The position numbers were made by a program, and so were the translations under genes. The notes under the pieces are model-generated. The model was not told where the DNA came from. It saw only the letters and a list, made by a program, of their open reading frames with translations, and made no database searches. From a virus, in the IMG/VR virus record IMGVR_UViG_3300025133_000022, positions 64,001 through 128,000 of that record: a stretch of 64,000 nucleotides of DNA; one strand, given 5' to 3'. Shown here one piece after another: positions 2,816-57,431 of the stretch. Within the stretch, counting starts at the first letter, position 1. Every line of letters begins with the position of its first letter.

Positions 2816-3155
2816 ACACTCTTACGATCCTAACTGGAAGCTACGTATCGTAGTAGATCAAACACTAAAGCCAGGCCAACAGATAGCACAAGCTCTTCAT
2901 GCAGCCATTGAGTTCTTGTTTGTATATCCTGAACAATCAAACACATGGCACTGTCTAAGCAACAGCGTAGTCGTCATGAACTGTGAGCCAGAAGAGCTAC
3001 CCAAGCTCTTAGATCGTTGTAAAAAGAAAAATGTGCAATACTCTACCTTCATGGAGCCTGACATGGATAACCGACTTACAGCAGTCTGCATAGAGCCAAC
3101 ACGAACAGGAAAGAAGTGCACCAGCAATTACAAGCTGGCCATGCGAGACATCTAA
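2808..3155 (+). CDS. Peptidyl-tRNA hydrolase 2-like (PTH2 family) protein
   Basis: GQQIAQALHAA motif, then VVV..., EPD...LTAVCIEP, ...KLA; size about 115 aa fits PTH2. Confidence 0.7.
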   Translation: MSEHSYDPNWKLRIVVDQTLKPGQQIAQALHAAIEFLFVYPEQSNTWHCLSNSVVVMNCEPEELPKLLDRCKKKNVQYSTFMEPDMDNRLTAVCIEPTRTGKKCTSNYKLAMRDI

Positions 3156-3187
3156 AGGCTCAGCGAGGGCTTGGACCTCGCGTTTAT

Positions 3188-3259
3188 GAGGAATTAGCTC
3201 AGCGGTAGAGCAGCAAATTCTAAACTTGTTTGTCGGGGGTTCGAATCCCCCATTCCTCA
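3188..3259 (+). tRNA. Amber suppressor tRNA (anticodon CTA)
   Basis: GAGGAAT/ATTCCTC acceptor stem; GCTC/GAGC D-stem; GCAAA-TT CTA AA-CTTGT anticodon arm (CTA at 3220-3222, A31.C39 mismatch); GGGGG-TTCGAAT-CCCCC; A73. Confidence 0.85.
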
Positions 3260-3299
3260 CTGCCGTAGGCGTGCGTAGCACGCCTTGTGGATTGAGCTC

Positions 3300-3328
3300 T
3301 TGACACACAAAAACAATCTGGTTATGTT
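3300..3328 (+). promoter_or_regulatory. sigma70-like promoter upstream of the tRNA cluster
   Basis: TTGACA-17 nt-TATGTT. Confidence 0.55.
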
Positions 3329-3365
3329 GTCAGACTGTTCTTTGAAAACCACAATTGAAATGAAT

Positions 3366-3439
3366 CGGAGTGTAGCGCAGCCTGGTAGCGCATCTGCTTT
3401 GGGAGCAGAGGGTCGCAGGTTCAAATCCTGCCTCTCCGA
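3366..3439 (+). tRNA. tRNA-Pro(TGG)
   Basis: CGGAGTG acceptor start; TCTGC-TTTGGGA-GCAGA anticodon arm. Confidence 0.9.
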
Positions 3440-3458
3440 CCTTTTCTAAAGGAACAAA

Positions 3459-3755
3459 ATGGAATACAAAACAATCGAAACAGCATTGAGAAACGCAAGC
3501 GAAAGCGTGAACTTAGCTATCCAGCAGGTTCAGCTAGCGAAAATGAAAGATGAAGCAGTAAGCTGCCACATCCAAATTGCAAGATACTTCAAGATCCATG
3601 ACAACAAGCCAACAACCTACACAGAAATAGCGACTGCTATCGGTCGCCCGAAAAAGTACGTAGCCAACGTGCTTTCTGGTTACTACAAATTCCAGAAGAC
3701 TCAGTGGGGAAAAGGCTGGAAGATGAGAAAATCTTGTCTTAAGCAAGTCCTTTAA
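3459..3755 (+). CDS. Hypothetical protein, possible HTH
   Basis: AAGGA RBS; TYTEIATAIGRPKKYVANVL resembles a helix-turn-helix. Confidence 0.6.
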   Translation: MEYKTIETALRNASESVNLAIQQVQLAKMKDEAVSCHIQIARYFKIHDNKPTTYTEIATAIGRPKKYVANVLSGYYKFQKTQWGKGWKMRKSCLKQVL

Positions 3756-3818
3756 GTAAAAGCAATTAGTTAACGAAGAAATCGTTAACCACGACTGAAT
3801 GCCTGAGCAGATTACATC

Positions 3819-3894
3819 GCCTTCCACGCGGGTAACACAGGTTCAAATCCTGTACTCGGCTTTATGCCGAGTTCGTCTAGCGGCTAAGACACCT
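3819..3894 (+). tRNA. Circularly permuted tRNA-Gly(TCC), cassette A
   Basis: 3' half 3819-3861 (GC-CTTCCAC-GCGGG...ACAGG TTCAAAT CCTGT ACTCGGC U73), linker TTAT, 5' half 3866-3894 (GCCGAGT TC GTCTAGCGGCTAAGAC A CCT); perfect 7-bp acceptor stem. Confidence 0.8.
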
Positions 3895-3966
3895 CAAACT
3901 AATCTCTTGTATCCTTGTCAGTCACCTTCACGCCCATGATTCTGAGGCTGTAAATATCAGACGCAC

Positions 3967-4041
3967 GGCTATGTGGCTCAGTTTGGTTAGAGCAGGGGCT
4001 TCATACGCCCAAGGCCACAGGTTCAAATCCTGTCATAGCCA
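3967..4041 (+). tRNA. tRNA-Met(CAT), elongator or Ile2 type
   Basis: GGCTATG/CATAGCC acceptor stem; loop TTCATAC. Confidence 0.9.
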
Positions 4042-4056
4042 TTTCACACTATTTAA

Positions 4057-4132
4057 TGCGGAGTAGACTGGAGTTTGGTCCCAGCACGGTCTCATAAGCC
4101 GTATGACGTAGGTTCGAATCCTACTTCCGCCT
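4057..4132 (+). tRNA. tRNA-Met(CAT), initiator-like
   Basis: 1:72 mismatch (T.C); ACGGT-CTCATAA-GCCGT; GTAGG-TTCGAAT-CCTAC. Confidence 0.8.
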
Positions 4133-4146
4133 CTTTAGAGAATGCA

Positions 4147-4452
4147 ATGTTTGATATAATAATTCCTTTCCTCATGGGCATCGTTCTTGTCGGTGCTATG
4201 ATGGAAAGAACTCTTACAGTCATTCAAGGAAACATTTCACGAACTGCTGTACTTAGCATTCTTATCAGTTCTGTGTATTGGTTTAACATCCAATATGTAG
4301 CGAGTGGAAATGTAGCTGCTTATATTAGTTTCAGTATAGGAACTCTTATAGTTACCTGTTGGCAAAGCTGGCGAGAAAAACAACGCTATGCTGGACAACC
4401 GGGGAAAAGCAGAAGAATGACTGACAAACTTAAAAATATTAAGAAAGAATGA
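4147..4452 (+). CDS. Small membrane protein
   Basis: Three hydrophobic segments; start re-called past the tRNA (MFDIIIPF). Confidence 0.6.
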   Translation: MFDIIIPFLMGIVLVGAMMERTLTVIQGNISRTAVLSILISSVYWFNIQYVASGNVAAYISFSIGTLIVTCWQSWREKQRYAGQPGKSRRMTDKLKNIKKE

Positions 4453-4654
4453 ACAAGAGTTTTCATCGCAAAAATAACGGCCCTAAGGTACCTAGATCTG
4501 GGCAACCAGTCAGGGAAAAATGTGAATCCTTCATGGACAAAGCATTGTGGTGACGGCAGATAAGCTTCTTGAAGCCCTGTAACGACCGGCAGAAACTCTT
4601 ACCTCCTTGTCTTTCTTATGTATTTGAATACTTAGTATTTCCTATTTACTTTTT

Positions 4655-4730
4655 GTCCTTGTAGCTCAGTGTTTAGAGCGCCCGAACCTGAAAAGCAGGG
4701 AGGTCGTCGGTTAGAATCCAACCAAGGACA
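4655..4730 (+). tRNA. Atypical or pseudo tRNA-Phe(GAA)
   Basis: Perfect GTCCTTG/CAAGGAC acceptor stem and GCTC/GAGC D-stem; loop CTGAAAA, but distorted anticodon stem and TTAGAAT T-loop. Confidence 0.55.
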
Positions 4731-4852
4731 ACAAATACATCTAAGTGCATCCAGACCTTACAGGCAACCCAAGGGTCAAGCCTGCAAGTGAAACTGTACA
4801 TTTGTGGGTACACAAACCCCGTGAGACCGTTCTCGACACGTTAAATCGGAGG

Positions 4853-5035
4853 ACACACGTTAGAATGCCAGAGAAAGATTACATCGTGCCAATTTACGAG
4901 CCGGTGGTTCAACTCCACAGCTAGAAAGCATGTACGCACGTGCAAAGGCGTACAAGGAGCGACGTTGGGTCGCTCATCGTGGATCGAAAGCCCACGATTC
5001 CTAAAAAATCATCTTCTCACCTCTTGTCTAACACC
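4853..5035 (+). ncRNA. Cassette B: conserved flanks enclosing a non-tRNA multi-hairpin RNA
   Basis: Leader GTTAG-AATGCC...AGATTACATC|G; trailer ATCT...TTGT-CTAAC-ACC; cargo has four or five perfect hairpins (TGTACGC/GCGTACA, GAGCGAC/GTCGCTC, ATCGTGG/CCACGAT). Confidence 0.55.
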
Positions 5036-5098
5036 CTTACTCGCGTAGTTGAACCAGCTCGCTTGTACCACGTACGAATGCCCAGTGAGGATTACATC

Positions 5099-5205
5099 GC
5101 CTTATAAGCGGGTGGTCGCAGGTTCGAGTCCTGTCTCTCCAACCATGGTCTTGACGGGCCTGGCTGTTAGCACAGCCGGAGAGTAGCTCAGTTGGTAGAG
5201 CACCT
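5099..5205 (+). tRNA. Circularly permuted tRNA-Ile(TAT), cassette C
   Basis: 3' half 5099-5145 (GC-CTTATAA-GCGGG...CTCTCCA A CCA), 31-nt linker, 5' half 5177-5205 (CGGAGAG TA GCTC...GAGC A CCT). Confidence 0.8.
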
Positions 5206-5304
5206 ACAAACTGATCCCACAATTTCTTGTCGTACATTTTATCGAATTGAGCGTAGCTCAAACCCACCTCAATAACCATAAACAAATGCCAAATAGATTA
5301 CATC

Positions 5305-5380
5305 GTCCCCGCCATATGGGGACGTGGTGTACAGGCGCACACCCTGAGTCCAATCAGGGAGGAATGGGTTCGATTCCCGT
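5305..5380 (+). tRNA. Circularly permuted Trp(CCA)/Gly-like tRNA, cassette D, broken near nt 65/66
   Basis: 3' piece GTCCCC G CCA (5305-5314), linker TAT, 5' piece GGGGACG...CCCTG-AGTCCAAT-CAGGG...ATGGG TTCGATT CCCGT (5318-5380); abnormal loop size. Confidence 0.6.
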
Positions 5381-5631
5381 GTAATAATCTATTCACTTCT
5401 TTGTTGTTTTATGTAGCAACTGCTCCCTAAAAGTACTACATTACCATCGTGGGATACGTCAGGTTAGTCCTGGAAGACTTGGTACGTTAAGCCAAGCGCG
5501 TTAAAGCACTTAAGTGCCTTGACTGGTTTTAATCAGGATACGTCCCCGCGTCTTCACTGTCGCAAGACAGCAACCCTTCAGGTGGGTACTGATTAAAATC
5601 ACCACGATCGAATGCCAGAGTAGATTACATC

Positions 5632-5709
5632 GCTTTTGGAGCCGGTGGTTCCCGGTTCGAATCCGGGTCTCCCTACTATAGAGAGGTAGCTTAATCAGGT
5701 AGAGCACCG
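5632..5709 (+). tRNA. Circularly permuted tRNA-Gln(TTG), cassette E
   Basis: 3' half 5632-5675 (GC-TTTTGGA-GCCGG...CCCGG TTCGAAT CCGGG TCTCCCT A), linker CTAT, 5' half 5680-5709 (AGAGAGG TA GCTT...GAGC A CCG); joining gives a perfect CCGGC/GCCGG stem. Confidence 0.8.
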
Positions 5710-5780
5710 TTAAAACTAATCTCTCACTTCTTTGTCGATCACCTTTTTCATACAAAAAACAACCATACAGATGAGAAAAT

Positions 5781-5930
5781 ATGAGAAGTAGACAATACGC
5801 CAAAATCAAAAGACGAGTACGCTTGCGTCTCATCGACGGCATGGATCCAGAACGTGTCGAAGAATTAAAAAACGAAGAACTAGCTCGCCTTGAAGCAGGC
5901 GAACGACCCTACCGAGCACCATCTCGATAG
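5781..5930 (+). CDS. Small hypothetical protein (49 aa)
   Basis: Hand translation MRSRQYAKIKRRVRLRLIDGMDPERVEELKNEELARLEAG...; protein-like composition. Confidence 0.45.
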   Translation: MRSRQYAKIKRRVRLRLIDGMDPERVEELKNEELARLEAGERPYRAPSR

Positions 5931-5935
5931 AGTAT

Positions 5936-6024
5936 GGTAGGTGTAGCTCATTTGGAGACGCAAGTCGTAGAGCGCCGGGTTGTGATTCCGGAGGTAACGG
6001 GTTCAATCCCCGTCATCTACCCCA
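5936..6024 (+). tRNA. tRNA-His(GTG) with an extra hairpin in the D-loop
   Basis: Encoded G-1:C73 pair and CCA; CCGGG-TTGTGAT-TCCGG; D-loop contains GAC-GCAA-GTC. Confidence 0.85.
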
Positions 6025-6207
6025 AGAACTAGCTAGCCTAGAGAGCACCACAGTTGAGACAACTGTGGGTCAATGTTCTCGCCACGAACAATTTGCTAAA
6101 TAGTGAAGACAGAGAGCCATGAAAAGCGACGACCTGTTGTTCAGAGCCCGTGCCTACCAGGCAGCACGACCGGGCTCACCATGTTGGAATGCCATGTAGA
6201 ATACACC

Positions 6208-6319
6208 GAATCAACGTAAACCCGGCGCCTTTTGGCTTTGTAGGTTCGAATCCTACCTCACCGACCAAAGCTCTTGAAATAAGAGTTAGGTGAGTGGTGA
6301 AATGGTAAACACTCCGGAT
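6208..6319 (+). tRNA. Circularly permuted tRNA-Tyr(GTA), cassette G
   Basis: 3' half with GTA (6216-6218) AA CCCGG, type II variable arm GCC-TTTT-GGC, GTAGG TTCGAAT CCTAC CTCACCG A CCA (to 6267); hairpin linker; 5' half from 6288 (AGGTGAG TG GTG...CAC T CCGGA). Confidence 0.7.
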
Positions 6320-6462
6320 GATTTTATCTTCATCTACACTTCCTTGTCCAACACCCCACGGGAAAGCAACTCTTCGCGTAGAGTTGAGAGGAGCAGGCTC
6401 ACTGCAGTCGCGCCCAGTCGCGACCTTTCCCACCACGACCGAATGCCCTAGATAACTACATC

Positions 6463-6537
6463 GTAAAACTTGAAATTTTAAGGTCTGGGTTCGAGTCCCA
6501 GTGGGTCCACTTTGGGCCTGTGGTGTAACGGTAGCAT
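6463..6537 (+). tRNA. Circularly permuted tRNA with TGA anticodon, cassette F, broken at nt 25/26
   Basis: 3' part G TAAAA-CTTGAAA-TTTTA AGGT CTGGG TTCGAGT CCCAG TGGGTCC A (6463-6509), linker CTTT, 5' part GGGCCTG TG GTGT AACGGTA GCAT (6514-6537). Confidence 0.7.
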
Positions 6538-6573
6538 CAAACATGTTATCTAACTCTTTTGTCGGTCACCTTT

Positions 6574-6650
6574 GCGGGCATAGCTCACGCTGGTAGAGCA
6601 CCTCGTTGCCAACGAGGAGGTAGTGGGATCATCGCCCACTGTCCGCTCCA
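6574..6650 (+). tRNA. tRNA-Gly(GCC)
   Basis: GCGGGCA/TGTCCGC, U73, CCA; CCTCG-TTGCCAA-CGAGG; atypical T-loop ATCATCG. Confidence 0.85.
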
Positions 6651-6745
6651 AGGGTCTTGAAAACATCCCTACTCGTTAGGTAGCATCTTCCTGCTACATT
6701 CTGTCGTCTGCCAAGAGTCAGCGGCAGTCTTATATTGACTCTTAT

Positions 6746-6833
6746 GCGGGGTTAGCTCAGTCTGGCCAGAGCGCCGGCCTTCCAAGCCGGAGGCGAATAG
6801 TTTACACGGGTTCGAATCCCGTACCCCGCTCCA
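6746..6833 (+). tRNA. tRNA-Gly(TCC) with an expanded variable region
   Basis: GCGGGGT/ACCCCGC, U73, CCA; CCGGC-CTTCCAA-GCCGG; variable region of about 15 nt. Confidence 0.85.
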
Positions 6834-6838
6834 TGCAC

Positions 6839-6913
6839 AAGAACGAGGGTTCCATTGAGAGGAATCGTGGGCGAATAGCCCACTAGATGGTTCGAATCCA
6901 TCCGTTCTTACCA
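6839..6913 (+). ncRNA. Non-canonical tRNA-like RNA
   Basis: AAGAACG/CGTTCTT A CCA; canonical T-arm GATGG TTCGAAT CCATC; two 6-bp internal arms and no canonical D-arm. Confidence 0.6.
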
Positions 6914-7468
6914 CGCCCGTGAATACAATTACCACCTACCTGGATGCATCTTGTGTAGGCTGGACTGGGTAACTTCTCAACAACATTCATCTGGACCCAG
7001 GTGACCCTGCGGTTGAAAACATGGTTCGATCCCATGCACAGGCTCTGAAAAAGGCAGGATAGATAGCTGTACAATCTGCTATAACAAAAATATATACACC
7101 AAGTGGGGCGAGAAACCCACACCCATGCACATCGCCAATGTAGGGTCCGAGATCTGTCGAACCACTGACCTGACGGGAGTTAACCCTAATCAGACATGTA
7201 ATAACAGCAATCACCCATGTGCGGGTCATGCTAATGACGTTGGTGCCATCTCTAGGTATGCAGTAGCCCGGCCACCATCCCGGAACTGCAATGAGAAAGA
7301 ACACATCCTGAGGTTTGTGTATAATTAACCTCAACTTTATATGGCTTGTACTGTGGATACACATTCAAGCCAGTTCTTAAGCAGTCAATTAGATGACGTG
7401 CAGTGCGAGTACTCTTGCTGTGGTGACGACGGTCACAAACAAAATCTAACAAAAAGCTAAGAACAAAT

Positions 7469-7542
7469 GCGGGGGTAGTTTTCAACCGATAAAACATCGG
7501 CCTTCCAAGCCGAAGTCCCGAGTTCAAACCTCGGTGCCCGCT
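7469..7542 (+). tRNA. tRNA-Gly(TCC)
   Basis: TCGGC-CTTCCAA-GCCGA; CCGAG TTCAAAC CTCGG; U73. Confidence 0.85.
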
Positions 7543-7907
7543 CTTGTGTGATTAACTCATAGCCTACCGGCAAAACAAGACCTCGATCTTGTTCCAATAG
7601 AGCACCTGCGCAAAGGCAGGAGGTAGAGAGTTTAGGCGACTCTCATTGCACACCACGGGGAATAGCGCATCTGTGATGATCTATGAAGTAGCCAACAGAT
7701 CATTGGCGAAAAGTTGCATGCGCGCACACTGTCATAAATACTTCGAAGTAATGCGTCGACGGACAAGTGAACCAAGTACGGAGATAGCAATGCGTCTTAG
7801 CGCGTTGGATGTGGATCCAGAGGTACCCCGTGTGGGGTTCCCCAACCATTAAAGAATAATCATGGGTACAAACGAAAGTACCAGTGGCTTGAAGTAACAA
7901 TTACCAC

Positions 7908-7978
7908 GGGACCTTAGCTCAACGGTAGAGCAGTGGGCTTTTAACCTTCTGATCAGGGTTCGATTCCCTGAGGTCCCA
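7908..7978 (+). tRNA. tRNA-Lys(TTT)
   Basis: GGGACCT/AGGTCCC; loop CTTTTAA; CAGGG TTCGATT CCCTG. Confidence 0.85.
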
Positions 7979-8146
7979 TCAAGTTCAGGATGTAAGCAGT
8001 AGCGCTACAATACTTACTAGCACGACCAAGCGGTCCCAGAGGATACTCTGATCTGCAGCCTCGTGTAAACAGGGAGACACAATCTCCCTGCCTGAACACT
8101 TAAACTGCAGCCAACTGGCTGCATTCTTTTTAAGAAAGGAGGAATA

Positions 8147-8725
8147 ATGGGTGCAGATGGAGGATACCAATGGTTAGAAGTCACCAATAAATCAGCTCTT
8201 AAAGAGCTGGTCTGGATGCTCTGGCGCTACCAAAACAATAACTGCTGGGCTATCAAACATGCTAAAGAGCCAGAAGGCCTGCAAAACCCTGGAGTCAATT
8301 GGCTAGAAGGTGGTTATGGAACTGATTGTGACTACGACTTTAGAAGTCTCCTGGACTTCATTGACTACTGTATAGTAGAAGATGATCCAGTCTACTGCGG
8401 TACAGATCCACGACACCTTACGTTCGCTGAGCTAGAAGAAGACCTGCTAACTGACCCAGAATTTAATCTTTGGGCCTGGAAAGACTACGGTCTAAGCTGG
8501 AACCACTGGGACACCTGGTGGAAACAAAAACACTGGGGTCCAATCATGTACGGTATCGCCACCAAGCTGCGCGTTGAAAATCCCAATCCAACTGAGTATG
8601 CTCCCAATCCGTGGCCTGAAATCTACGTACCCAAGAACCTACGTAACACCACTGTCCAAGAGTGGGCACAACAAGTCAAAGCCCTTCTCCCCGGCGGACA
8701 CATCTATCAAGAAACATGGACGTAA
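8147..8725 (+). CDS. Hypothetical protein
   Basis: AAGGAGG RBS; 192-aa ORF. Confidence 0.75.
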   Translation: MGADGGYQWLEVTNKSALKELVWMLWRYQNNNCWAIKHAKEPEGLQNPGVNWLEGGYGTDCDYDFRSLLDFIDYCIVEDDPVYCGTDPRHLTFAELEEDLLTDPEFNLWAWKDYGLSWNHWDTWWKQKHWGPIMYGIATKLRVENPNPTEYAPNPWPEIYVPKNLRNTTVQEWAQQVKALLPGGHIYQETWT

Positions 8726-39508: not shown

Positions 39509-40545
39509 ACTTCATACAAGGAGTACTTATGCAAACCAAAATCACAGATGAAAAGAAGCTAGAAATTGCTCTAGCTTACCAGCAGGGTCAAAGTACAATA
39601 GAGATTGCAAACAACTACGGCTGCTCGACTACCATAGTTTACAGAGCTCTGAAACTGCTTGAGACTCCTAGGAGAACTGGTGGCCATCAGCCACCAAACT
39701 TCAAAGATACTTACTTTGACCAGATCAACACAGAGGAAAAAGCCTACTTCCTAGGCTTAATCATCGCAGACGGAAGCGTATGTCAGCCCTCCAGGGGCGG
39801 TCAAAAAATTTTCCAGTTGGAACTCCTTGAGCAAGACAACAAGCTCATTGCCCAACTCTGCCAAGAACTCCAATACCCTCTGTCCAGGATTAAAACTTAC
39901 CAGCGAACAGGCAGATCAGCTACAAGCAAAGTCTCAATTACCTCAAACCAACTAGCTAAAAGCCTAGCAAAATACGGAGTGGTTGCAGACAAAGCCCCTT
40001 GGACTGAACTACCCACAATAGACGCAAGCCTGATGAGACATGCTCTTAGAGGACTGTACGATGGCGATGGAAGTATTGCCAAGTACAGACTCGTACTGAC
40101 AGCAGGCAACACAGTGATTCTAAACCAAGTGCGTGACCATCTGATCAGCACCTTAAGCCTGAATCCAAAAGCCATTAGAATCTACAAAACAGGAGAAAGA
40201 GCCTGGGCTCTTTCTATCAACAGAAAGCTGGAAAGACAATCTGTGATGAAGCACCTCTACCAAGATGCTTCTGTCGCTATGCAAAGAAAAGCCCGCTGGC
40301 TGGGCAACCAGTCAGAATAACCATTCCGTGAATTCAGAGAAAGCCCAGAGGTGGGTAACCCTGAGCCAAGCTGTAGAGGAATCTACAGAAGGTGCAACGA
40401 CTAGTGAATACAATCCAGAACGGATTATGAATCACCACGAGCGCGGAACATCCCAAGCGGATGAAGATATAGTCTGAGCTACGCCAATAGCCTAAAAAGA
40501 AAGCGTAGAAGCTCAGGATAAAGAGCCTGAGCGATAACAACACTG
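39481..40545 (+). mobile_element. Group I intron in dnaE
   Basis: Exon ends in U; CCGTGAATTCAGAGAA, AACCCTGAGCCAAG, GTGCAACGACTA and AAGATATAGTCT core elements; terminal G 40545; splicing restores RRAMG|KKK. Confidence 0.9.
39529..40320 (+). CDS. Intron-encoded LAGLIDADG homing endonuclease with an N-terminal HTH
   Basis: AYFLGLIIADGS and ALRGLYDGDGSI motifs. Confidence 0.9.
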   Translation: MQTKITDEKKLEIALAYQQGQSTIEIANNYGCSTTIVYRALKLLETPRRTGGHQPPNFKDTYFDQINTEEKAYFLGLIIADGSVCQPSRGGQKIFQLELLEQDNKLIAQLCQELQYPLSRIKTYQRTGRSATSKVSITSNQLAKSLAKYGVVADKAPWTELPTIDASLMRHALRGLYDGDGSIAKYRLVLTAGNTVILNQVRDHLISTLSLNPKAIRIYKTGERAWALSINRKLERQSVMKHLYQDASVAMQRKARWLGNQSE

Positions 40546-41907
40546 AAAAAGAAAGTCTCCGTGCTGGAGAAGTACAGAGACCCCTTCATTAAAGGCTGTG
40601 TAGACCACAATATCAATAAGCAATATGCAGAAACTCTTTGGGACGACACTCTACTTGGTTTTGCTAACTATTGCTTTAACAAGTCCCACAGTCTGGCATA
40701 CAGCGTCATCACCTACCTTTGCGCTTTTTTCAAAGCACACTACCCTACTGAGTTCTTCACCTCGTTGATGACTATCCGATCTCAGGTGATGCAACCAAAA
40801 CTATGGGCGCAGAAAGCGCCCCAGTTCGTTAGCGAGGCCAAGAAGATGGGAGTACGTGTTCACGCACCCTACATCCAGAAGTCCAAACTTGGCTTCACCA
40901 TTGAAGACGATGAAATCTACTTTGGTCTCAATGCCATTAAGCAAGTAGGAGTAACAGCTTGCCGAAGCATTATTGCTGCAAGAAAGCGGGGAAACTTTAA
41001 AGACATCTGGGACTTTTTAGCTCGAGTCAACAGACAGAAAGTTACCACCAGAACCTTTGAGGCCCTGGTAAGAGCGGGTGCGTTCGACCGCATGGGTTAC
41101 CTACGGTCAGAACTACTCGAAAAGACTAAAGACATCTATTCATTCTTCAACAACAACATTGAATATGAAGAAAGAATCCAAAATCATAAAATTAGAGCAG
41201 CTGAAAATCAAAAAAAAGATGCACGCCGTACAGAAATTCAAAAAGAAATCAAGAATGCTAAAACACTTATCAAGCAAATGAAAAAAGAAAAGCTGAATGT
41301 GCCTGCATTTCTACAACATGCTGCCGACTATGACAAAAGATTAAGAAACGTAAGACAACAGATTCGTGCAACCGGGTTAAAGCCAGAAGAAACATTGTCA
41401 GGAAAAGACCTACAAGAGTATAACGAATCTTTGACTCTTCGAAAAAAACCAGAACTCAAGTTGAAAGACAAACCAATTCAGCCAGAGCTTACTAGAGTTA
41501 GAGCTGTAAAGATAAGCGTCGCAGAATTAATGGAACAAGCAGATTTCATTGGATGCTATCTTCATGACCATCCAGCTCCCGTCTTGTATCCAGATACTAC
41601 CCGCATTGCCAACGCACAACAAGGTGACTACCTAGGCATGGCAGGGCAAATTACCAACTGGAAGCAAATCAAAACCAGAAAGGGAGATGACATGGCTTTC
41701 GCCCAGATGGGCGACGGTACTGGTCTCGCAGAACTAATAATCTTTCCATATGTGTACAAAAGACTCAAAGCCAGTGGTAAACTACCAGAGCCAAGAGATA
41801 TTGTTCGGGTTAGATGTGAAGTAGAAACAGCTGGAAACGAAGATAGCGAAGAAAATGGTGAAATTAAAGTCATCGTTAAAGATATCGAAGTCTACCAGTC
41901 CAAATAG
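40546..41907 (+). CDS. dnaE: DNA polymerase III alpha, catalytic fragment, exon 2
   Basis: FANYCFNKSHSLAY; KAHYPTEFF; FGLNAIKQVG; LVRAGAFD; C-terminal OB fold (KTRKGDDMAF). Confidence 0.9.
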   Translation, partial: KKKVSVLEKYRDPFIKGCVDHNINKQYAETLWDDTLLGFANYCFNKSHSLAYSVITYLCAFFKAHYPTEFFTSLMTIRSQVMQPKLWAQKAPQFVSEAKKMGVRVHAPYIQKSKLGFTIEDDEIYFGLNAIKQVGVTACRSIIAARKRGNFKDIWDFLARVNRQKVTTRTFEALVRAGAFDRMGYLRSELLEKTKDIYSFFNNNIEYEERIQNHKIRAAENQKKDARRTEIQKEIKNAKTLIKQMKKEKLNVPAFLQHAADYDKRLRNVRQQIRATGLKPEETLSGKDLQEYNESLTLRKKPELKLKDKPIQPELTRVRAVKISVAELMEQADFIGCYLHDHPAPVLYPDTTRIANAQQGDYLGMAGQITNWKQIKTRKGDDMAFAQMGDGTGLAELIIFPYVYKRLKASGKLPEPRDIVRVRCEVETAGNEDSEENGEIKVIVKDIEVYQSK

Positions 41908-44858: not shown

Positions 44859-45901
44859 CACATATATTAGACAACAAAACATTAGCAGCCGACGATGTGC
44901 TATGCGTACCAGCCATGGGAATCCTGCCCAGCAGGTCTGATGCGAAGATAGCGCCGTTTATCTACAGCGCCCCTATGGACACGGTAACAGGCTACACCTT
45001 AACCAAAGAGCTTGTTGAGCTGGGTCACTTCCCCGTGGTTAGTAGAGCTTTAAAACGAGATGAATGGTTGCGAACCTTAAGAGAATTCGCAGGTCACCCA
45101 CAGGTCTTCTTTGCGATCGGTCTAGACCGAAATCAATTAAAAAACCTAATAGATACACTGATAGAGATGGAAATTGACAAGCCAATTAACTTGGCAATTG
45201 ACATTGCTCATGGAGATATGAAGCAAGCTCACGAACTGGCTGCCTATCTTTCAGAACTGGGCATTTGCCGCTTTATTATGAGCGGTAGTATCTGCACTCC
45301 TTCAGCTGCAATACGAGCTACAATGAATGGCTGCACTCACCTGCGAGTTGGTGTCGGTCCAGGCAGTGTATGCAGCACACGATTAATGACAGGTTGTGGA
45401 TATCCTCAGCTTAGTGCAATCTATCAAATTGCCAAGCTGGGGCCACGTGCCCAAATCATTGCTGATGGAGGAATCAGAAACTCTGGCGACGCAGTCAAAT
45501 ATCTTGCAGCTGGAGCCAACGGAGTTATGCTAGGCGGTCTTTTGTCAAAAACAGTAGAAGCTACTGGGTGGGAGTTTGTTGGGTGGGAGCAACCGCCTAC
45601 AGACGGCACAATATCTTTCCCTATGCCAAGCCCAGAACCCATCTATCAAAAGAACTTTCGAGGGCAAGCAAGCGCATCATTCATGCGCGAACATGGAAAA
45701 ACTCACGCATGTCCTGAAGGCATAGAGAAAACTATCACCTGGGAAGGTGACAAGTTAAAACATACAGTTAAAAGTTTTGAAGCTGGTATAGCCGGTGGCA
45801 TAAGTTTGCTTGGCCTTACTAGCATTGAAGAACTTGGTCCTGAAACTGTAGAAATGGTGCAGGTCACCAACAGTGCAATCTTGGAAGGAAAACCACAATG
45901 A
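44855..45901 (+). CDS. IMPDH/GMP reductase family protein without CBS domains
   Basis: SAPMDTV; IDIAHG; LRVGVGPGSVCSTR; IIADGGIRNSGDAVK.LAAGA..VMLG; FRGQAS; PEG. Confidence 0.9.
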   Translation: MTHILDNKTLAADDVLCVPAMGILPSRSDAKIAPFIYSAPMDTVTGYTLTKELVELGHFPVVSRALKRDEWLRTLREFAGHPQVFFAIGLDRNQLKNLIDTLIEMEIDKPINLAIDIAHGDMKQAHELAAYLSELGICRFIMSGSICTPSAAIRATMNGCTHLRVGVGPGSVCSTRLMTGCGYPQLSAIYQIAKLGPRAQIIADGGIRNSGDAVKYLAAGANGVMLGGLLSKTVEATGWEFVGWEQPPTDGTISFPMPSPEPIYQKNFRGQASASFMREHGKTHACPEGIEKTITWEGDKLKHTVKSFEAGIAGGISLLGLTSIEELGPETVEMVQVTNSAILEGKPQ

Positions 45902-55180: not shown

Positions 55181-55738
55181 ATGAAAACCATTGTAATTAA
55201 TCTATTTGGAGGTCCGGGTGCTGGCAAAAGCACCCTAGCCTCCGAGTTGTACGTGCTGATGAAACGCCAGGGCCTATCAGTTGAGCTCGTACGAGAGTAC
55301 GCAAAAGACTGGGCATACCAAGACAAGCACATCGACACCCTGATGAAACAAACATACATCCTTGCCAAGCAAGCTCAACGAGAGTCCAGCCTGTATTGGA
55401 AAGTGAAGTACATCATCACCGACTGCCCTATGGCTCTGAGTGGATTCTATGCTCAAAAGTATCTTGGTACACCAGCCATGAGCGTACTGATGCTGGAATT
55501 CCTACGAGAAGCTGAACGCGCAGATATTAAGCACGTGTACTTCCAAGTACCAAGAAAGAAAGAATACAACCCAAATGGCAGGTACGAAAACGAGGCTGAT
55601 GCTATCGCTATTGACCAAGAACAAGCCACATACTTCGGGAACTTCTTCAACCCCATAAAACTGGAGGGACCAGACAACGAGTTGGCCCTCCAGATCTATC
55701 ACACACTAAGGATTCAAGAACAATGCACGCAATGCTAG
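55181..55738 (+). CDS. P-loop NTPase (NadR/AAA_28-like kinase)
   Basis: INLFGGPGAGKST; ELVREYAKD; IITDCP. Confidence 0.8.
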   Translation: MKTIVINLFGGPGAGKSTLASELYVLMKRQGLSVELVREYAKDWAYQDKHIDTLMKQTYILAKQAQRESSLYWKVKYIITDCPMALSGFYAQKYLGTPAMSVLMLEFLREAERADIKHVYFQVPRKKEYNPNGRYENEADAIAIDQEQATYFGNFFNPIKLEGPDNELALQIYHTLRIQEQCTQC

Positions 55739-56253
55739 ATATTGAGACACTGGGTACTGGTCCAGACGCCCCTGTGCTTAGCGCAGCAGTTGTCTTCTTT
55801 GACCCAGAAACAGAAAAGACATTCGAACAGGCAAAATTCATATTCAATGTAACTTTGCAAACTACTCGAGTCATTGATTTCACCACCGTCACATGGTGGA
55901 TTAACCAAAGCCCAGAAGCCAGAGCTCACTGGATGAATGTAAAAGAATACAATACCCTCGAACAATTCGTGCAGTTTTGCGAAACCCATAGCAAAGTAAC
56001 TTGGTGGGCTAACAGTCCAGCATTCGATGAAGTTATCATGAGCTCGTTGCTCCGTGACGCTGATGAACGAGTTCCTTGGAAATTCTGGACCTGGCGTGAC
56101 GTCAGAACCATTAGGAACTTCCTATTCAACCAAACAAAACCAAACAACAATAACGTGCACGACCCTCTAGCAGATTGTCTTGCTCAGATCGAACTTGTGA
56201 ATAGGTTTTATGCTCAGCAAGCCATGGTAGCCATACTCCAGGAGCAAAAATGA
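55723..56253 (+). CDS. DEDDh 3'-5' exonuclease (Rv2179c-like)
   Basis: MLDIETLGT; WANSPAFD; W..RDVRT; H.PL.DC..Q. Confidence 0.85.
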   Translation: MHAMLDIETLGTGPDAPVLSAAVVFFDPETEKTFEQAKFIFNVTLQTTRVIDFTTVTWWINQSPEARAHWMNVKEYNTLEQFVQFCETHSKVTWWANSPAFDEVIMSSLLRDADERVPWKFWTWRDVRTIRNFLFNQTKPNNNNVHDPLADCLAQIELVNRFYAQQAMVAILQEQK

Positions 56254-56855
56254 TTGTACAACACAGCATTGGAAGCGGATTTGTTCCACAAATCACAAGC
56301 ACAATGATCAATAAATTCGAAGTAGTTCATGTAAAGAGTTTTACTCAAGACAGTGCTAAAGAATTTGCAGAAGCCATCGCGAGAGCATGCGAAACAGGTC
56401 AAACCTTCATCCCGGTAGTTGTTAACAGCTATGGTGGTCAAGTCCATGCGCTTATGTCCATGATAGATACTATGGAGGCTTGCAAACTTCCCATCTATAC
56501 GATCGCACAAGGTGTGGCTATGAGTTGCGGTAGCTTTCTTCTAGCTTTTGGCGATCAGCGTTACTCTACTCCGAATAGTACTATTATGATTCATAGTATT
56601 GCTCTTGGAGCCATGGGCAAACTAGCTGATATTGAAAGCAGCACTGCACACGGACGTGTGCTTAGCACTAAGTTATGGAGCAGATTAGATCGACGTTGCG
56701 GACAAAAACAGGGTTTCTTTGAAGCTCTTATGAAAAACAACGAAAATGCTGACCTGTACCTAACAGCCAAGCAGGCAAAGAAATTCAACCTGATTGACAA
56801 GGTCAAGACTCCAGCTGTTCAAATAACAGCTACAGTCACCTATAAATTCAATTGA
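56250..56855 (+). CDS. clpP: ClpP-like serine protease 1
   Basis: VNSYGG; GVAMSCGSFLL (Ser); PNSTIMIH (His); DLYLTAKQA..NLID (Asp). Confidence 0.85.
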   Translation: MIVQHSIGSGFVPQITSTMINKFEVVHVKSFTQDSAKEFAEAIARACETGQTFIPVVVNSYGGQVHALMSMIDTMEACKLPIYTIAQGVAMSCGSFLLAFGDQRYSTPNSTIMIHSIALGAMGKLADIESSTAHGRVLSTKLWSRLDRRCGQKQGFFEALMKNNENADLYLTAKQAKKFNLIDKVKTPAVQITATVTYKFN

Positions 56856-56861
56856 GGAACC

Positions 56862-57431
56862 ATGAAAGAACTACTTAAGAAAGCCATCGCAAAACTAAAC
56901 TCGATTGTTAATAAGCCAACTGGCCCAACAGTCGAAGAATTAATCGCAGACGGCATTAAACAAACAGCAACAAGCTTCAGTGACTCTTATAGTGAAAAAC
57001 AATCACTACTACGCTCTGCTTCACGCCATGCTAGTTTTGCAGGCACAGACATCAGACTGTATATTAGTGATGCGCCATTCGACTTAACGAAGTACACCAC
57101 ATACGAAACCTACAGCACAGCACAATCTATAAGGTGGAATATTGGCCCCAACGACGCAATGGCCAATGGTGTTGTCAAAAGTATTAATTTTGGAAGCTTA
57201 CCACCTGACATTGAAGAGAAATATTTAACAGTTTTTGGTGTCAATGAATATGGTGACTACTCTGTTATTGCTGCCTTTAGAATAGAAAAAGTTACACAAA
57301 TGAATTCTCAGACCTCTGTCGACGATCTCTTCTTAGAACGAAACGTCATGTGGGTTGGCGAATACCTTCGTAATTCGGTAACACAAACAGAAAACTGGTC
57401 AAAAAGGAGTGACAATGACACCAGAAACTAG
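56862..57431 (+). CDS. Hypothetical protein
   Basis: GAGG RBS; 189 aa. Confidence 0.7.
   Translation: MKELLKKAIAKLNSIVNKPTGPTVEELIADGIKQTATSFSDSYSEKQSLLRSASRHASFAGTDIRLYISDAPFDLTKYTTYETYSTAQSIRWNIGPNDAMANGVVKSINFGSLPPDIEEKYLTVFGVNEYGDYSVIAAFRIEKVTQMNSQTSVDDLFLERNVMWVGEYLRNSVTQTENWSKRSDNDTRN

What the first reader, a model, noticed from the sequence alone, without database searches (positions are those of the whole stretch)
3788..6570. Family of circularly permuted tRNA genes inside a conserved structured cassette
Seen: six tRNA-containing cassettes (A 3788-3926 Gly-TCC; C 5067-5235 Ile-TAT; D 5275-5409 Trp/Gly-like; E 5601-5743 Gln-TTG; G 6178-6355 Tyr-GTA; F 6432-6570 TGA anticodon). Each carries the 3' half of a tRNA upstream of its 5' half, joined by a 3-31 nt linker. 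The halves pair into acceptor, D and T arms with matching identity features (U73 for Gly; long variable arm and A73 for Tyr). Established: permuted tRNA genes are known from some algae (e.g. Cyanidioschyzon merolae) and the archaeon Thermofilum pendens, where bulge-helix-bulge splicing circularises them. I do not know of such a family in a bacteriophage. Inference: a phage-specific back-splicing or two-piece tRNA maturation system, possibly hiding tRNA genes from integrases or anticodon nucleases, or giving regulated maturation. No intact Gln, Tyr or Trp tRNA gene is visible in this window, so the permuted copies may be the functional ones.
Basis: partly seen in the sequence, partly recalled or inferred. 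Interest (0 to 1): 0.96.

Follow-up and report, generated by a model that had tools for sequence, protein, structure and literature searches.

The report
Phage Y RNA array mimicking tRNAs
The "back-to-front tRNA genes" are a cluster of eight small RNA genes of the known Y RNA (YrlA) type, the partners of the Ro60 protein that this phage also encodes. They are not tRNA genes that need splicing, but several copy a tRNA more completely than any published Y RNA, down to the anticodon arm.

Summary
The cassettes are real, and five of the six listed (A, C, E, G, F) do place T arm and acceptor 3' strand ahead of acceptor 5' strand and D arm. D keeps the normal D-anticodon-T order. Two further cassettes (B, H) were missed.

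The conserved flanks are the Ro60-docking stem of bacterial and phage Y RNAs: CGAAUGC on the 5' side, CUUGUC on the 3' side, and two covarying helices. Rfam YrlA aligns full-length to C, E and F, below its gathering score, as it also does for a mycobacteriophage of the species with a published YrlA. The 192.5-kb marine phage encodes a Ro60 ortholog 10.8 kb upstream on the same strand. Five other Ro60-encoding phages carry the same scaffold, four as arrays of at least five copies; one was found by DNA motif alone.

There is no bulge-helix-bulge motif, no ribozyme match and no RtcB. The genome also has ordinary tRNAs for Gln-UUG, Gly-UCC and Ile-UAU. Back-splicing is therefore not supported.

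Departing from published YrlAs:
- arrays of 7-8 copies;
- a composite 5-bp anticodon stem with a canonical 7-nt loop;
- N73-CCA encoded in the acceptor loop of some copies.

Verdict: new variant of a known kind. The scan has noted similar phage Y RNAs on other DNA.

The parts
3788..3926 (+). Cassette A: YrlA-type Y RNA. Outer helix GACTGA/TCAGTC. Permuted tRNA-like module with a Glu/Asp-like body, a 7-bp acceptor closed by TTAT, and a composite anticodon arm (loop CTTCCAC) with the docking stem entering at 28/29.
   Evidence: Own model R1 129.8 bits; fold; ARAGORN on rejoined halves; body comparison. Orthologues in L112, L118 and L119 keep the UCC loop while the stem changes.
4441..4617 (+). 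Outer helix GAAAGA/TCTTTC, extendable to 9 bp; inner helix AAGAGTTT/AAACTCTT; TCATCG junction. Its 5' strand overlaps the stop codon of the small ORF 4147-4452.
   Evidence: Helix and motif scan; fold, z = -2.1. R1 does not find it, so this is the weakest member.
4853..5040 (+). YrlB-like; no acceptor or D arm.
   Evidence: Motif; fold; R1 48.5 bits; orthologue L112 14657-14810 at 49.8 bits.
5067..5240 (+). Cassette C: YrlA-type Y RNA. Outer helix GTACGA/TCGTAC. Anticodon arm with loop CTTATAA. Acceptor 3' strand followed by an encoded A73-CCA and a 35-nt structured loop.
   Evidence: Rfam YrlA 40.9 bits, full length. R1 93.5 bits although C was not in the training set. CCA. One contig of independent sample X2 covers 4922-5310.
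5272..5412 (+). Cassette D: Y RNA with the same docking stem (AAACAA/TTGTTT; inner helix AATAGATTA/TAATCTATT). The tRNA-like part is in native order: extra hairpin, D-like arm, 5-bp stem with a 6-nt loop holding CCA, T arm. No acceptor stem. The layout resembles that described for D. radiodurans Yrn1.
   Evidence: Fold; R1 29.7 bits; sequence read directly.
5600..5745 (+). Cassette E: YrlA-type Y RNA. Outer helix GATCGA/TCGATC. Gln-like body. Composite anticodon arm (loop TTTTGGA) with the docking stem entering at 29/30.
   Evidence: Rfam YrlA 37.6 bits, full length; R1 129.9 bits; best body match is tRNA-Gln; one contig of X2 covers 5574-6093.
6176..6358 (+). Cassette G: YrlA-type Y RNA with the canonical YrlA geometry. 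The anticodon stem (CCGG/CCGG) runs on into the docking stem, and only GTAAA of a Tyr-like loop remains. It has a variable-arm hairpin, a 3-bp D stem, and an encoded A73-CCA followed by a hairpin loop.
   Evidence: R1 41.3 bits; fold; ARAGORN calls Tyr-gta at one junction only; orthologue L118 15824-15979.
6432..6572 (+). Cassette F: YrlA-type Y RNA. Outer helix GACCGA/TCGGTC. Self-contained 5-bp anticodon hairpin (TAAAA/TTTTA, loop CTTGAAA) with the docking stem entering at 26/27. About 47 nt of its T arm, acceptor and D region are 88-94% identical to unannotated or mis-annotated stretches beside Ro-like genes in Streptomyces phages.
   Evidence: Rfam YrlA 27.2 bits; R1 112.1 bits; Streptomyces phage matches.

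Best explanation
Window 3788-6572 is an array of eight Y RNA genes, set among ordinary tRNA genes on the + strand of a 192.5-kb marine phage.

Shown or read from the sequence:
- Each RNA closes with a two-helix 'handle'. A 6-bp outer helix is followed by a conserved asymmetric internal loop (5' AUGCC opposite 3' pyrimidine-rich ...YUUG), then a 6-9-bp inner helix, often with one bulged base, then UUAC-AUCG.
- This handle matches the Ro60-docking stem of YrlA.
- The far end of the handle carries a tRNA-derived module. In A, C, E, G and F it comes in the YrlA order: T arm, acceptor stem closed by a loop, D arm.
- In A, C, E and F the handle branches off between tRNA positions 26 and 30, so a complete anticodon arm survives: a 5-bp stem, partly built from the two 'halves', and a 7-nt loop with U33 and a purine at 37.

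Inferred:
- The RNAs are cut out of a long transcript made together with the tRNAs.
- They are bound by the phage's own Ro60 ortholog (527 aa, 10.8 kb upstream, same strand).
- At least those with a 7-bp acceptor stem, and above all C and G with their encoded N73-CCA, are opened by RNase P and trimmed. The result would be two-piece RNAs with a free CCA end, as shown for M. smegmatis YrlA.
- The particle most likely works as other Ro60/Y RNA particles do. The Y RNA gates Ro60 or tethers it to a partner, and the tRNA-shaped end is the handle for tRNA-recognising proteins. This would serve surveillance, repair or protection of the large tRNA set that the phage brings. This last step is the least certain.

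They are not spliced into tRNAs.
For: 1. Rfam YrlA (RF02553) aligns over its whole length to C (40.9 bits, E 1.5e-7), E (37.6) and F (27.2). The matching blocks are CGAAUGC, UAC, T arm, acceptor hairpin, GUAGCUCA..GGUAGAGC and CUUGUCG. A Bixzunavirus (phage LRRHood, the species in which YrlA was published) scores only 36.1 bits with this model.
2. The phage encodes Ro60 at genome 55441-57024: Pfam vWA_Ro60 at 2.4e-18, TROVE at 23.1 bits, and a full-length match to D. radiodurans Rsr (PDB 2nvo) at 1.4e-17. Among its 2221 homologues, many of those that carry a source name are called '60 kDa SS-A/Ro ribonucleoprotein'.
3. The helices covary. Over 24 copies from six phages, 91.6% of cells are paired against 63.8% in shuffles. 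The covariation score is 0.607 against 0.159 in shuffles and 0.06-0.11 when the partners are slid. Both sides change at 23 of 28 pairs. The outer-helix hexamers of 14 copies are 98.8% paired, with three or four pair types at positions 2-4.
4. The scaffold and Ro60 travel together. Three syntenic relatives with Ro60 at 72, 56 and 48% identity carry arrays (L112, L118, L119). Myxococcus phage Mx1 (38%) carries two copies. A 359-kb phage found by the DNA motif alone has Ro60 and at least five copies 5-10 kb downstream of it.
5. My own covariance model finds exactly seven copies in the 192.5-kb genome, all in this array.
6. Published precedent: the YrlA architecture, its presence in 22 phages, and RNase P cleavage plus CCA addition in M. 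smegmatis YrlA (PMC4201824).
7. N73-CCA is kept in the C-type orthologues while the loop after it varies from 4 to 35 nt. The phage also has a CCA-adding-type nucleotidyltransferase.
Against: - None of the Rfam matches reaches the gathering score of 69 bits. Cassette A gets no Rfam YrlA match at all.
- The Ro60 gene is 10.8 kb away, whereas Chen et al. found nearly all YrlAs within 4 kb.
- No RNA data exist: expression, RNA ends and Ro60 binding are all inferred.
- Published YrlAs lack an anticodon loop. The complete anticodon arms and encoded CCA seen here would also be expected of something that acts as a tRNA.
- Part of the covariation evidence comes from alignments fitted to my model, and some copies were found by a scan that required pairing.
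Confidence: 0.85

Rival explanations
1. Ro60-tethered tRNA decoys or two-piece tRNAs. This is a functional refinement, not a rival identity. After RNase P cleavage and CCA maturation, the modules with full anticodon arms would be taken for real tRNAs by aminoacyl-tRNA synthetases, modification enzymes or host anticodon nucleases. They would then act as decoys, sensors or sponges during infection.
For: - 16 of 17 hairpins at this position, in six phages, have a 7-nt loop with T at 33 and a purine at 37. Most stems, some of them composite, are exactly 5 bp.
- The UCC loop of the A type is kept in four phages while its stem changes: CGC/GCG, CATCC/GGAAG, CTC/GAG.
- N73-CCA is conserved in the C type.
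- Two mini Y RNAs in L112 carry only an anticodon-like hairpin.
- M. smegmatis YrlA receives CCA in vivo (PMC4201824).
Against: - The anticodon changes between orthologues of the C type (UAU, CUU, UAG, CGU) and of the E type (UUG, UGG).
- N73 is not conserved in the A type (T, A, A).
- The bodies do not match the anticodons.
- No nuclease, synthetase or binding datum exists.
- A helix projecting from positions 26-30 would probably clash with the ribosome (inference).
Confidence: 0.12
2. Genuine circularly permuted tRNA genes. The flanks would pair to present two cleavage sites, the ends would be ligated into a circle or a spliced product, and the linker would be removed to give functional tRNAs.
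For: - Rejoined halves are called as tRNAs by ARAGORN.
- Acceptor stems are 7 bp, and C and G encode CCA.
- The phage has a weak RNA-ligase-like match (24.8 bits, below the cut-off).
Against: - The flanks are the YrlA/Ro60 docking stem.
- There is no bulge-helix-bulge: the two unpaired stretches face each other at one end of the inner helix instead of flanking a 4-bp helix (read from the sequence).
- No ribozyme or intron family matches, and the phage has no RtcB.
- The junction falls at four different tRNA positions.
- Normal Gln-ttg, Gly-tcc (two copies) and Ile-tat genes exist.
- A Glu/Asp-like body carries a Gly anticodon, and a Gln-like body carries UGG in L118.
- B, D, H and the mini copies share the flanks but could never yield a tRNA.
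Confidence: 0.03
3. The covarying flanks are a new small self-cleaving ribozyme or a permuted mini-intron. This reading also appears in another first-stage note on the same stretch.
For: About 60 nt of conserved, covarying structure with conserved unpaired bases, and a conserved G at the end of CATCG.
Against: - The same conserved bases (CGAAUGC and CUUGUC) are the published Ro60-contact region of YrlA (PMC4201824).
- The scaffold occurred with Ro60 in all six phages examined.
- It is far too small for a group I intron.
- Rfam gives no ribozyme match even at E up to 10.
Confidence: 0.02

Closest known systems
YrlA (Y RNA-like A), Rfam RF02553; S. Typhimurium, M. smegmatis and mycobacteriophages (Chen et al. 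2014, PMC4201824; structure in Wang et al. 2018, bioRxiv 10.1101/312249)
   Same: - A Ro60-docking stem made from the 5' and 3' ends, with CGAAUG on the 5' strand and CUUGUC on the 3' strand.
- A YUAY motif.
- A tRNA-like module in the order T arm, closed acceptor-like stem, D arm.
- Located in a genome with a Ro60 gene on the same strand.
- Some members have a 7-bp acceptor stem, as in M. smegmatis.
   Different: - Eight paralogues in one array, against the two Y RNAs each shown for S. Typhimurium and M. smegmatis (PMC4201824).
- 10.8 kb from Ro60, inside the tRNA cluster.
- In A, C, E and F the docking stem branches off at positions 26-30, so a complete anticodon arm remains. The solved S. 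Typhimurium YrlA 'lacks the anticodon loop'. In the Bixzunavirus YrlA, the hairpin at that place is not anticodon-like and lies 2 nt ahead of the T stem, where a variable arm would sit.
- N73-CCA is encoded in some acceptor loops.
- Rfam scores are below the gathering threshold.
D. radiodurans Yrn1 and S. Typhimurium / M. smegmatis YrlB (PMC4201824)
   Same: - Cassette D has the D-like arm, then a 5-bp stem with a 6-nt loop, then the T arm. This is the layout described for Yrn1.
- Cassette B keeps only a T arm, as YrlB does.
   Different: The handle sequence is of the YrlA type, and D carries an extra 5' hairpin. No binding data exist, and no PNPase-binding module was identified.
Circularly permuted tRNA genes of Cyanidioschyzon merolae and Thermofilum pendens
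   Same: The 3' part lies upstream of the 5' part, the acceptor ends are joined by a short linker, and the flanks pair with each other.
   Different: Those are matured through a bulge-helix-bulge motif by the splicing endonuclease and a ligase, via a circular intermediate. Here there is no such motif, the flanks are a conserved protein-docking stem, and several family members hold no tRNA at all.
Two-piece (circularly permuted) tmRNA of alpha-proteobacteria and cyanobacteria
   Same: The gene order is permuted, so that the acceptor 3' strand and T arm come first. The mature RNA stays in two base-paired pieces with a free CCA end. (This description is from general knowledge and was not checked here.)
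   Different: No mRNA-like tag region, no tmRNA model match above noise, and a different partner protein.

Membership tests
YrlA-type Y RNA (RF02553; Chen et al. 2014) | Conserved Ro60-contact motif GNCGAAN0-1G near the 5' end, in a stem formed with the 3' end | tested here: met
   C, E and F have CGAAUG, aligned to the model's CgaAUGC. A, B, G and H have UGAAUG, AGAAUG, GGAAUG and AGAAUG; D has CAAAUG. The first G of the motif is replaced in most copies. The stem with the 3' end is present and covaries.
YrlA-type Y RNA (RF02553; Chen et al. 2014) | tRNA-like module in the order T arm, acceptor-like stem closed by a loop, D arm, with tRNA tertiary-contact bases | tested here: met
   Met for A, C, E, G and F. 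Not met for B, D and H, which are other Y RNA types on the same handle.
YrlA-type Y RNA (RF02553; Chen et al. 2014) | YUAY motif after the docking stem | tested here: met
   UUAC in A, B, C, D and E; CUAC in F; AUAC in G.
YrlA-type Y RNA (RF02553; Chen et al. 2014) | Encoded on the same strand as a Ro60/Rsr ortholog and close to it (nearly all within 4 kb) | tested here: inconclusive
   Ro60 is present on the same strand but 10.8 kb upstream. The same spacing and gene order hold in three relatives. The scaffold occurs together with Ro60 in all six phages examined.
YrlA-type Y RNA (RF02553; Chen et al. 2014) | Score at or above Rfam's gathering threshold (69 bits) | tested here: not met
   40.9, 37.6 and 27.2 bits. 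For calibration, the YrlA of a Bixzunavirus, the species with a published YrlA, scores 36.1 bits.
YrlA-type Y RNA (RF02553; Chen et al. 2014) | Bound by Ro60/Rsr in cells | not testable with these tools
   Needs immunoprecipitation or a gel-shift assay. No RNA run holds this DNA.
Circularly permuted tRNA genes (C. merolae / T. pendens type) | 3' half upstream of the 5' half, with the acceptor ends joined by a linker | tested here: met
   A, C, E, G and F.
Circularly permuted tRNA genes (C. merolae / T. pendens type) | Bulge-helix-bulge motif (two 3-nt bulges around a 4-bp helix) formed by the termini at the processing junction | tested here: not met
   Read from the sequence. A 3-5-nt stretch (CAU...) and a 5-8-nt stretch (...AAAC) face each other at the same end of a 6-9-bp helix.
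Circularly permuted tRNA genes (C. merolae / T. pendens type) | The product is a coherent tRNA whose body and anticodon agree and which is needed for decoding | tested here: not met
   The A-type body is Glu/Asp-like but carries UCC. The E-type body is Gln-like but carries UGG in L118. Anticodons differ between orthologues. Normal Gln-ttg, Gly-tcc and Ile-tat genes are present.
Circularly permuted tRNA genes (C. merolae / T. pendens type) | A splicing endonuclease and ligase are available | tested here: inconclusive
   The phage has no RtcB and only a sub-threshold RNA-ligase-like match. The host is unknown.
Self-cleaving ribozymes / group I introns | Match to a known catalytic RNA family | tested here: not met
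   No such match in 3600-7000 even at E up to 10. The only intron in the window is at 40257-40493.

The most novel reading that the evidence does not exclude
These are Y RNA/tRNA chimeras that are opened by RNase P to expose a CCA end. With their complete anticodon arms, they would be taken for specific tRNAs by host or phage factors such as anticodon nucleases, synthetases or U34/37-modifying enzymes. The array would be a Ro60-based tRNA decoy, sensor or repair system used in the phage-host contest over tRNAs. The changing anticodons between orthologues would be the trace of an arms race.
Probability: 0.12. Interest if true: 0.85.

Novelty: new variant of a known kind. Interest (0 to 1): 0.5.

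Why it matters
The purpose of the tRNA-like end of bacterial and phage Y RNAs is still open. The 2014 and 2018 papers name no partner for it.

This phage lineage offers unusually informative natural variants. A single Ro60 gene is served by seven or eight Y RNAs. Their modules range from nothing, through a lone T arm or a lone anticodon hairpin, to an almost complete tRNA with anticodon arm and encoded CCA. This points to tRNA-recognising proteins, and perhaps anticodon-specific ones, as the partners. It also gives concrete RNAs to test.

In practice, such cassettes are left unannotated or mis-called as partial tRNAs. One example is the 'tRNA-Ser(cga)' of Streptomyces phage Sham. They could also be mistaken for split or permuted tRNA genes.

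Tried and rejected
- **Motif scan of viral contigs** (CGAATGCC, gap, TTACATCG): 89 loci, which I estimate is about what chance would give. Only L015 proved real when the 3' partner was required.
- **The search for related loci with the single Ro60 protein**: nothing. Relatives were reached instead through the search for homologous proteins and the look-up of encoding contigs, walking along the contigs.
- **RNA evidence**: no RNA holder is listed for this DNA, so expression and RNA ends could not be examined.
- **ARAGORN on rejoined halves**: positive, but it cannot separate a tRNA mimic from a permuted tRNA gene.
- **Does each module copy the phage tRNA with the same anticodon?** With the anticodon loop left out, this holds only for the E type, which is Gln-like. 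Otherwise no.
- **Promoter and terminator scan of 3000-8200**: no unit structure per cassette.
- **Hairpin-ribozyme loop B (CCAGAG, AUUAC)**: looked similar by eye, but those bases vary between cassettes, so rejected.
- **Bulge-helix-bulge and a group I-type splice (terminal G, U before the junction)**: considered and rejected on geometry and size.
- **Misassembly**: rejected on the independent contigs. The high-depth 'joints' in that output are ordinary tRNAs of other organisms that share D and T arms with cassette C.
- **Extra weak YrlA matches** at genome 48326 and 73441 overlap real tRNAs and were taken as the known tRNA-dimer artefact.

Full report
**What is in the sequence.**

A motif search finds seven + strand copies of GAATGCC, a 3-9-nt spacer, then ATTACATCG between 3797 and 6463. 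Each has a matching 3' flank 130-180 nt downstream. That flank is a pyrimidine-rich run ending in TTG, followed by the exact complement of the six bases that precede ATG on the 5' side. An eighth, more divergent copy (H, 4441-4617) turns up when only the helix and the TTG are required.

The flanks form two helices:
- an outer 6-bp helix: GACTGA/TCAGTC, GAAAGA/TCTTTC, GTTAGA/TCTAAC, GTACGA/TCGTAC, AAACAA/TTGTTT, GATCGA/TCGATC, GTTGGA/TCCAAC, GACCGA/TCGGTC;
- an inner 6-9-bp helix, often with one bulged base.

A conserved asymmetric internal loop separates the two helices.

Minimum-energy folds place a multi-branch junction between the flank strands. In A, C, E, G and F this junction holds, in order:
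- a T arm with GGTTCRANTCC;
- a 7-bp hairpin made of acceptor 3' strand, loop and acceptor 5' strand;
- a D arm.

D does not fit. After an extra hairpin it reads D-like arm, a 5-bp stem with a 6-nt loop holding CCA, then T arm. This is the native order, and there is no acceptor stem. B has only a T-arm-like hairpin among four others, and H has no tRNA-like part.

**What the cassette is.**

Rfam finds no ribozyme or intron in this stretch. At a relaxed threshold the YrlA model (RF02553) aligns over its whole length to C (40.9 bits), E (37.6) and F (27.2). The conserved blocks of the model fall exactly on the conserved flank bases: CgaAUGC, CUAc and CUuGucG. The model's T arm, acceptor-like hairpin and D arm fall on the 'permuted halves'.

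YrlA is the tRNA-mimicking Y RNA bound by bacterial Ro60 (Rsr). Chen et al. 2014 (PMC4201824) describe:
- the motif GNCGAAN0-1G;
- the YUAY element;
- the order T arm, acceptor-like stem, D arm;
- its presence beside Ro60 in 254 bacterial species and 22 phages.

The scores are below Rfam's gathering score of 69 bits. However, the YrlA of a Bixzunavirus (phage LRRHood), the species in which a phage YrlA was published, scores only 36.1 bits.

**The protein partner is there.**

The window is bases 64001-128000 of a 192.5-kb virus record. At 55441-57024, on the same strand and 10.8 kb upstream of cassette A, lies a 527-aa protein. It has:
- a Ro60 vWA domain (2.4e-18) and a TROVE match at threshold;
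- a full-length match to D. radiodurans Rsr (2nvo, 1.4e-17) and to Xenopus and human Ro60;
- 2221 homologues, and many of those that carry a source name are called '60 kDa SS-A/Ro ribonucleoprotein'.

**Relatives.**

The nearest isolate by Ro60 is Myxococcus phage Mx1 (38% identity). It carries a canonical YrlA and a second copy in its tRNA cluster, both unannotated.

I walked along metagenomic contigs that encode Ro60 at 72, 56 and 48% identity. All three show the same gene order: Ro60, dUTPase, ribonucleotide reductase, further genes, a peptidoglycan-binding peptidase, a CUA-anticodon tRNA, tRNA-Pro, then an array of the same scaffold.

A covariance model built from ten of these RNAs (R1) gives the following:
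- It recovers C, which was not in the training set, at 93.5 bits, and B, G and D at 48.5, 41.3 and 29.7 bits.
- It finds exactly seven copies in the whole genome, all in this array.
- It finds at least five copies 5-10 kb downstream of a Ro60 gene in a 359-kb phage that had been picked up by the DNA motif alone. That co-occurrence is independent of how the locus was found.

Over 24 copies from six phages:
- 91.6% of cells in the five modelled helices are paired, against 63.8% in shuffles;
- the covariation score is 0.607, against 0.159 in shuffles and 0.06-0.11 for slid partners;
- 23 of 28 pairs change on both sides.

Caveats apply. The alignment is fitted to the model, and part of the collection was found by requiring pairing. 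The window's own copies, however, were found from the 5' motif alone.

**Why not spliced tRNA genes.**

1. At the junction, a 3-5-nt stretch (CAU...) and a 5-8-nt stretch (...AAAC) face each other at one end of the inner helix. This is not a bulge-helix-bulge.
2. The handle enters the tRNA body at different places: 26/27 in F, 28/29 in A and C, 29/30 in E, and inside the anticodon loop in G.
3. The phage has no RtcB and only a sub-threshold RNA-ligase-like match.
4. B, D, H and the 65-85-nt mini copies in relatives share the handle but could not give a tRNA.
5. The genome has ordinary genes for Gln-ttg (just before the window), Gly-tcc (two copies) and Ile-tat.
6. With the anticodon loop left out, the A-type body best matches tRNA-Glu/Asp although its loop reads UCC. 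The E-type body best matches tRNA-Gln even in L118, where the loop reads UGG. From memory, the A type closely resembles E. coli tRNA-Glu, including its 4-nt variable loop. That is a lead, not a test.
7. N73 of the A type is T, A and A in three phages.

ARAGORN does call the rejoined halves as tRNAs, but that is expected of a good mimic.

Misassembly is excluded. Contigs of a second sample cover C and E whole, and most of F, with no differences.

**What departs from published YrlAs.**

In the solved S. Typhimurium YrlA the anticodon stem runs straight into the Ro60 stem, and 'YrlA lacks the anticodon loop' (10.1101/312249). In the Bixzunavirus YrlA, the hairpin upstream of the T arm is not anticodon-like and lies 2 nt ahead of the T stem, where a variable arm would sit.

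Here A, C, E and F keep a full anticodon arm:
- a 5-bp stem, which in A, C and E is built from 2-3 pairs contributed by the end of the '5' half' plus 2-3 pairs of a local hairpin;
- a 7-nt loop;
- a normal 4-5-nt variable loop before the T stem.

Across six phages, 16 of 17 such loops have T at position 33 and a purine at 37. The A-type loop keeps UCC in four phages while its stem changes: CGC/GCG, CATCC/GGAAG, CTC/GAG. The C and E types change anticodon instead: UAU, CUU, UAG and CGU for C; UUG and UGG for E.

In C and G, and in the C-type orthologues and three copies of the 359-kb phage, the acceptor 3' strand is followed by N73-CCA. The rest of the loop varies from 4 to 35 nt. In M. smegmatis, YrlA is cut by RNase P at its 7-bp acceptor stem and given CCA in vivo (PMC4201824). 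The phage also encodes a CCA-adding-type nucleotidyltransferase 4 kb upstream of Ro60. The most likely mature form of at least these copies is therefore a two-piece RNA with a free CCA end, held together by the handle. This is inference.

**Mechanism and confidence.**

Identity as Ro60-partner Y RNAs of the YrlA class: about 0.85.

Function is inferred from other Ro60 particles, where the Y RNA gates the Ro60 ring or tethers it to an effector. The tRNA-shaped end is then the part recognised by tRNA-handling proteins. A decoy or sensor role towards anticodon-specific factors is the most novel reading still open (about 0.12). Back-splicing into functional tRNAs is about 0.03. A new ribozyme is about 0.02.

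**Novelty.**

The kind is known: Y RNAs that mimic tRNA, including in phages. The variant is new as far as the searched literature shows. It consists of arrays of 7-8 copies set in the tRNA cluster, complete anticodon arms, encoded CCA, and mini copies that display only an anticodon-like hairpin.

Earlier notes of this scan describe comparable phage Y-RNA-like arrays on other DNA. One note on this same stretch already calls it an array of eight Y-RNA-like scaffolds.

Noticed in passing
window 3188-3260; also L112 12323-12401 and L118 12369-12443: A tRNA with anticodon CUA (ARAGORN labels it 'Pyl'; Rfam tRNA 67.1 bits). It sits at the same place, just upstream of tRNA-Pro and the Y RNA array, in three related phages. 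It may be an amber suppressor, which would hint at TAG read-through or recoding late in infection.
   Followed up: partly
window 5937-6021: Rfam tRNA (51.1 bits) with anticodon loop TTGTGAT (His, GUG). It carries an insertion of about 15 nt in the D loop that can form a GAC-GCAA-GTC hairpin. ARAGORN does not call it. The tRNA-His genes of the relatives are of normal length.
   Followed up: no
window 4655-4730 and 6746-6833: The first is another tRNA seen by Rfam (45.5 bits) but not by ARAGORN. The second is a tRNA-Gly(tcc) with a 12-nt insertion in the variable region. The phage's tRNA set includes several structurally odd members.
   Followed up: no
window 40257-40493: Group I intron (Rfam 62.9 bits, above the gathering score). 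It overlaps the 3' end of the open reading frame 39529-40320 and lies just upstream of the frame 40561-41907, probably splitting one gene.
   Followed up: no
L001 3925-4115 (Streptomyces phage Sham, ON645339.1 68249-68439): A Y RNA of the F type, closed by a 12-bp helix (CCCCTGAAGATT/AATCTTCAGGGG), lies about 650 nt upstream of the Ro-like gene. GenBank annotates part of it as a 62-nt 'tRNA-Ser(cga)'. In about 13 sister phages the same stretch has no annotation.
   Followed up: partly
L097 8253-8382 and 8605-8712 (Myxococcus phage Mx1, OR576727.2 45167-45296 and 45519-45626): Two Y RNAs in the tRNA cluster of Mx1, about 11 kb upstream of its TROVE gene. The first is unannotated. The second lies under a 123-nt 'hypothetical protein' CDS (45524-45646), and its CATC forms the stem of an anticodon-like hairpin with loop CTGGAAA.
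   Followed up: partly
genome 51416-51784 (12.2 kb before the window start), and L110 1320-5784: Upstream of Ro60 lies a CCA-adding / poly(A)-polymerase-type nucleotidyltransferase. The relatives add NAD-salvage genes (NAMPT, a NUDIX/NMN-adenylyltransferase fusion, NAD kinase), a Macro domain and SIR2. This forms a neighbourhood devoted to RNA and NAD metabolism around the Ro60 / Y RNA / tRNA block.
   Followed up: no
window 5098-5204 (read-laying output): Very high contig depth and 'joints' from 5202 to 5114 with 17-20 inserted letters. These are ordinary tRNAs of abundant marine organisms whose D and T arms are nearly identical to those of cassette C. This shows how canonical the arms of the mimic are.
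   Followed up: yes
window 3785-3792, 5064-5071, 5597-5605, 6429-6436 and the matching 3' ends: CAC or CCAC is conserved just before the outer helix, and CACC just after it. These bases do not pair with each other. They may be processing signals or single-stranded tails for the Ro60 cavity.
   Followed up: no
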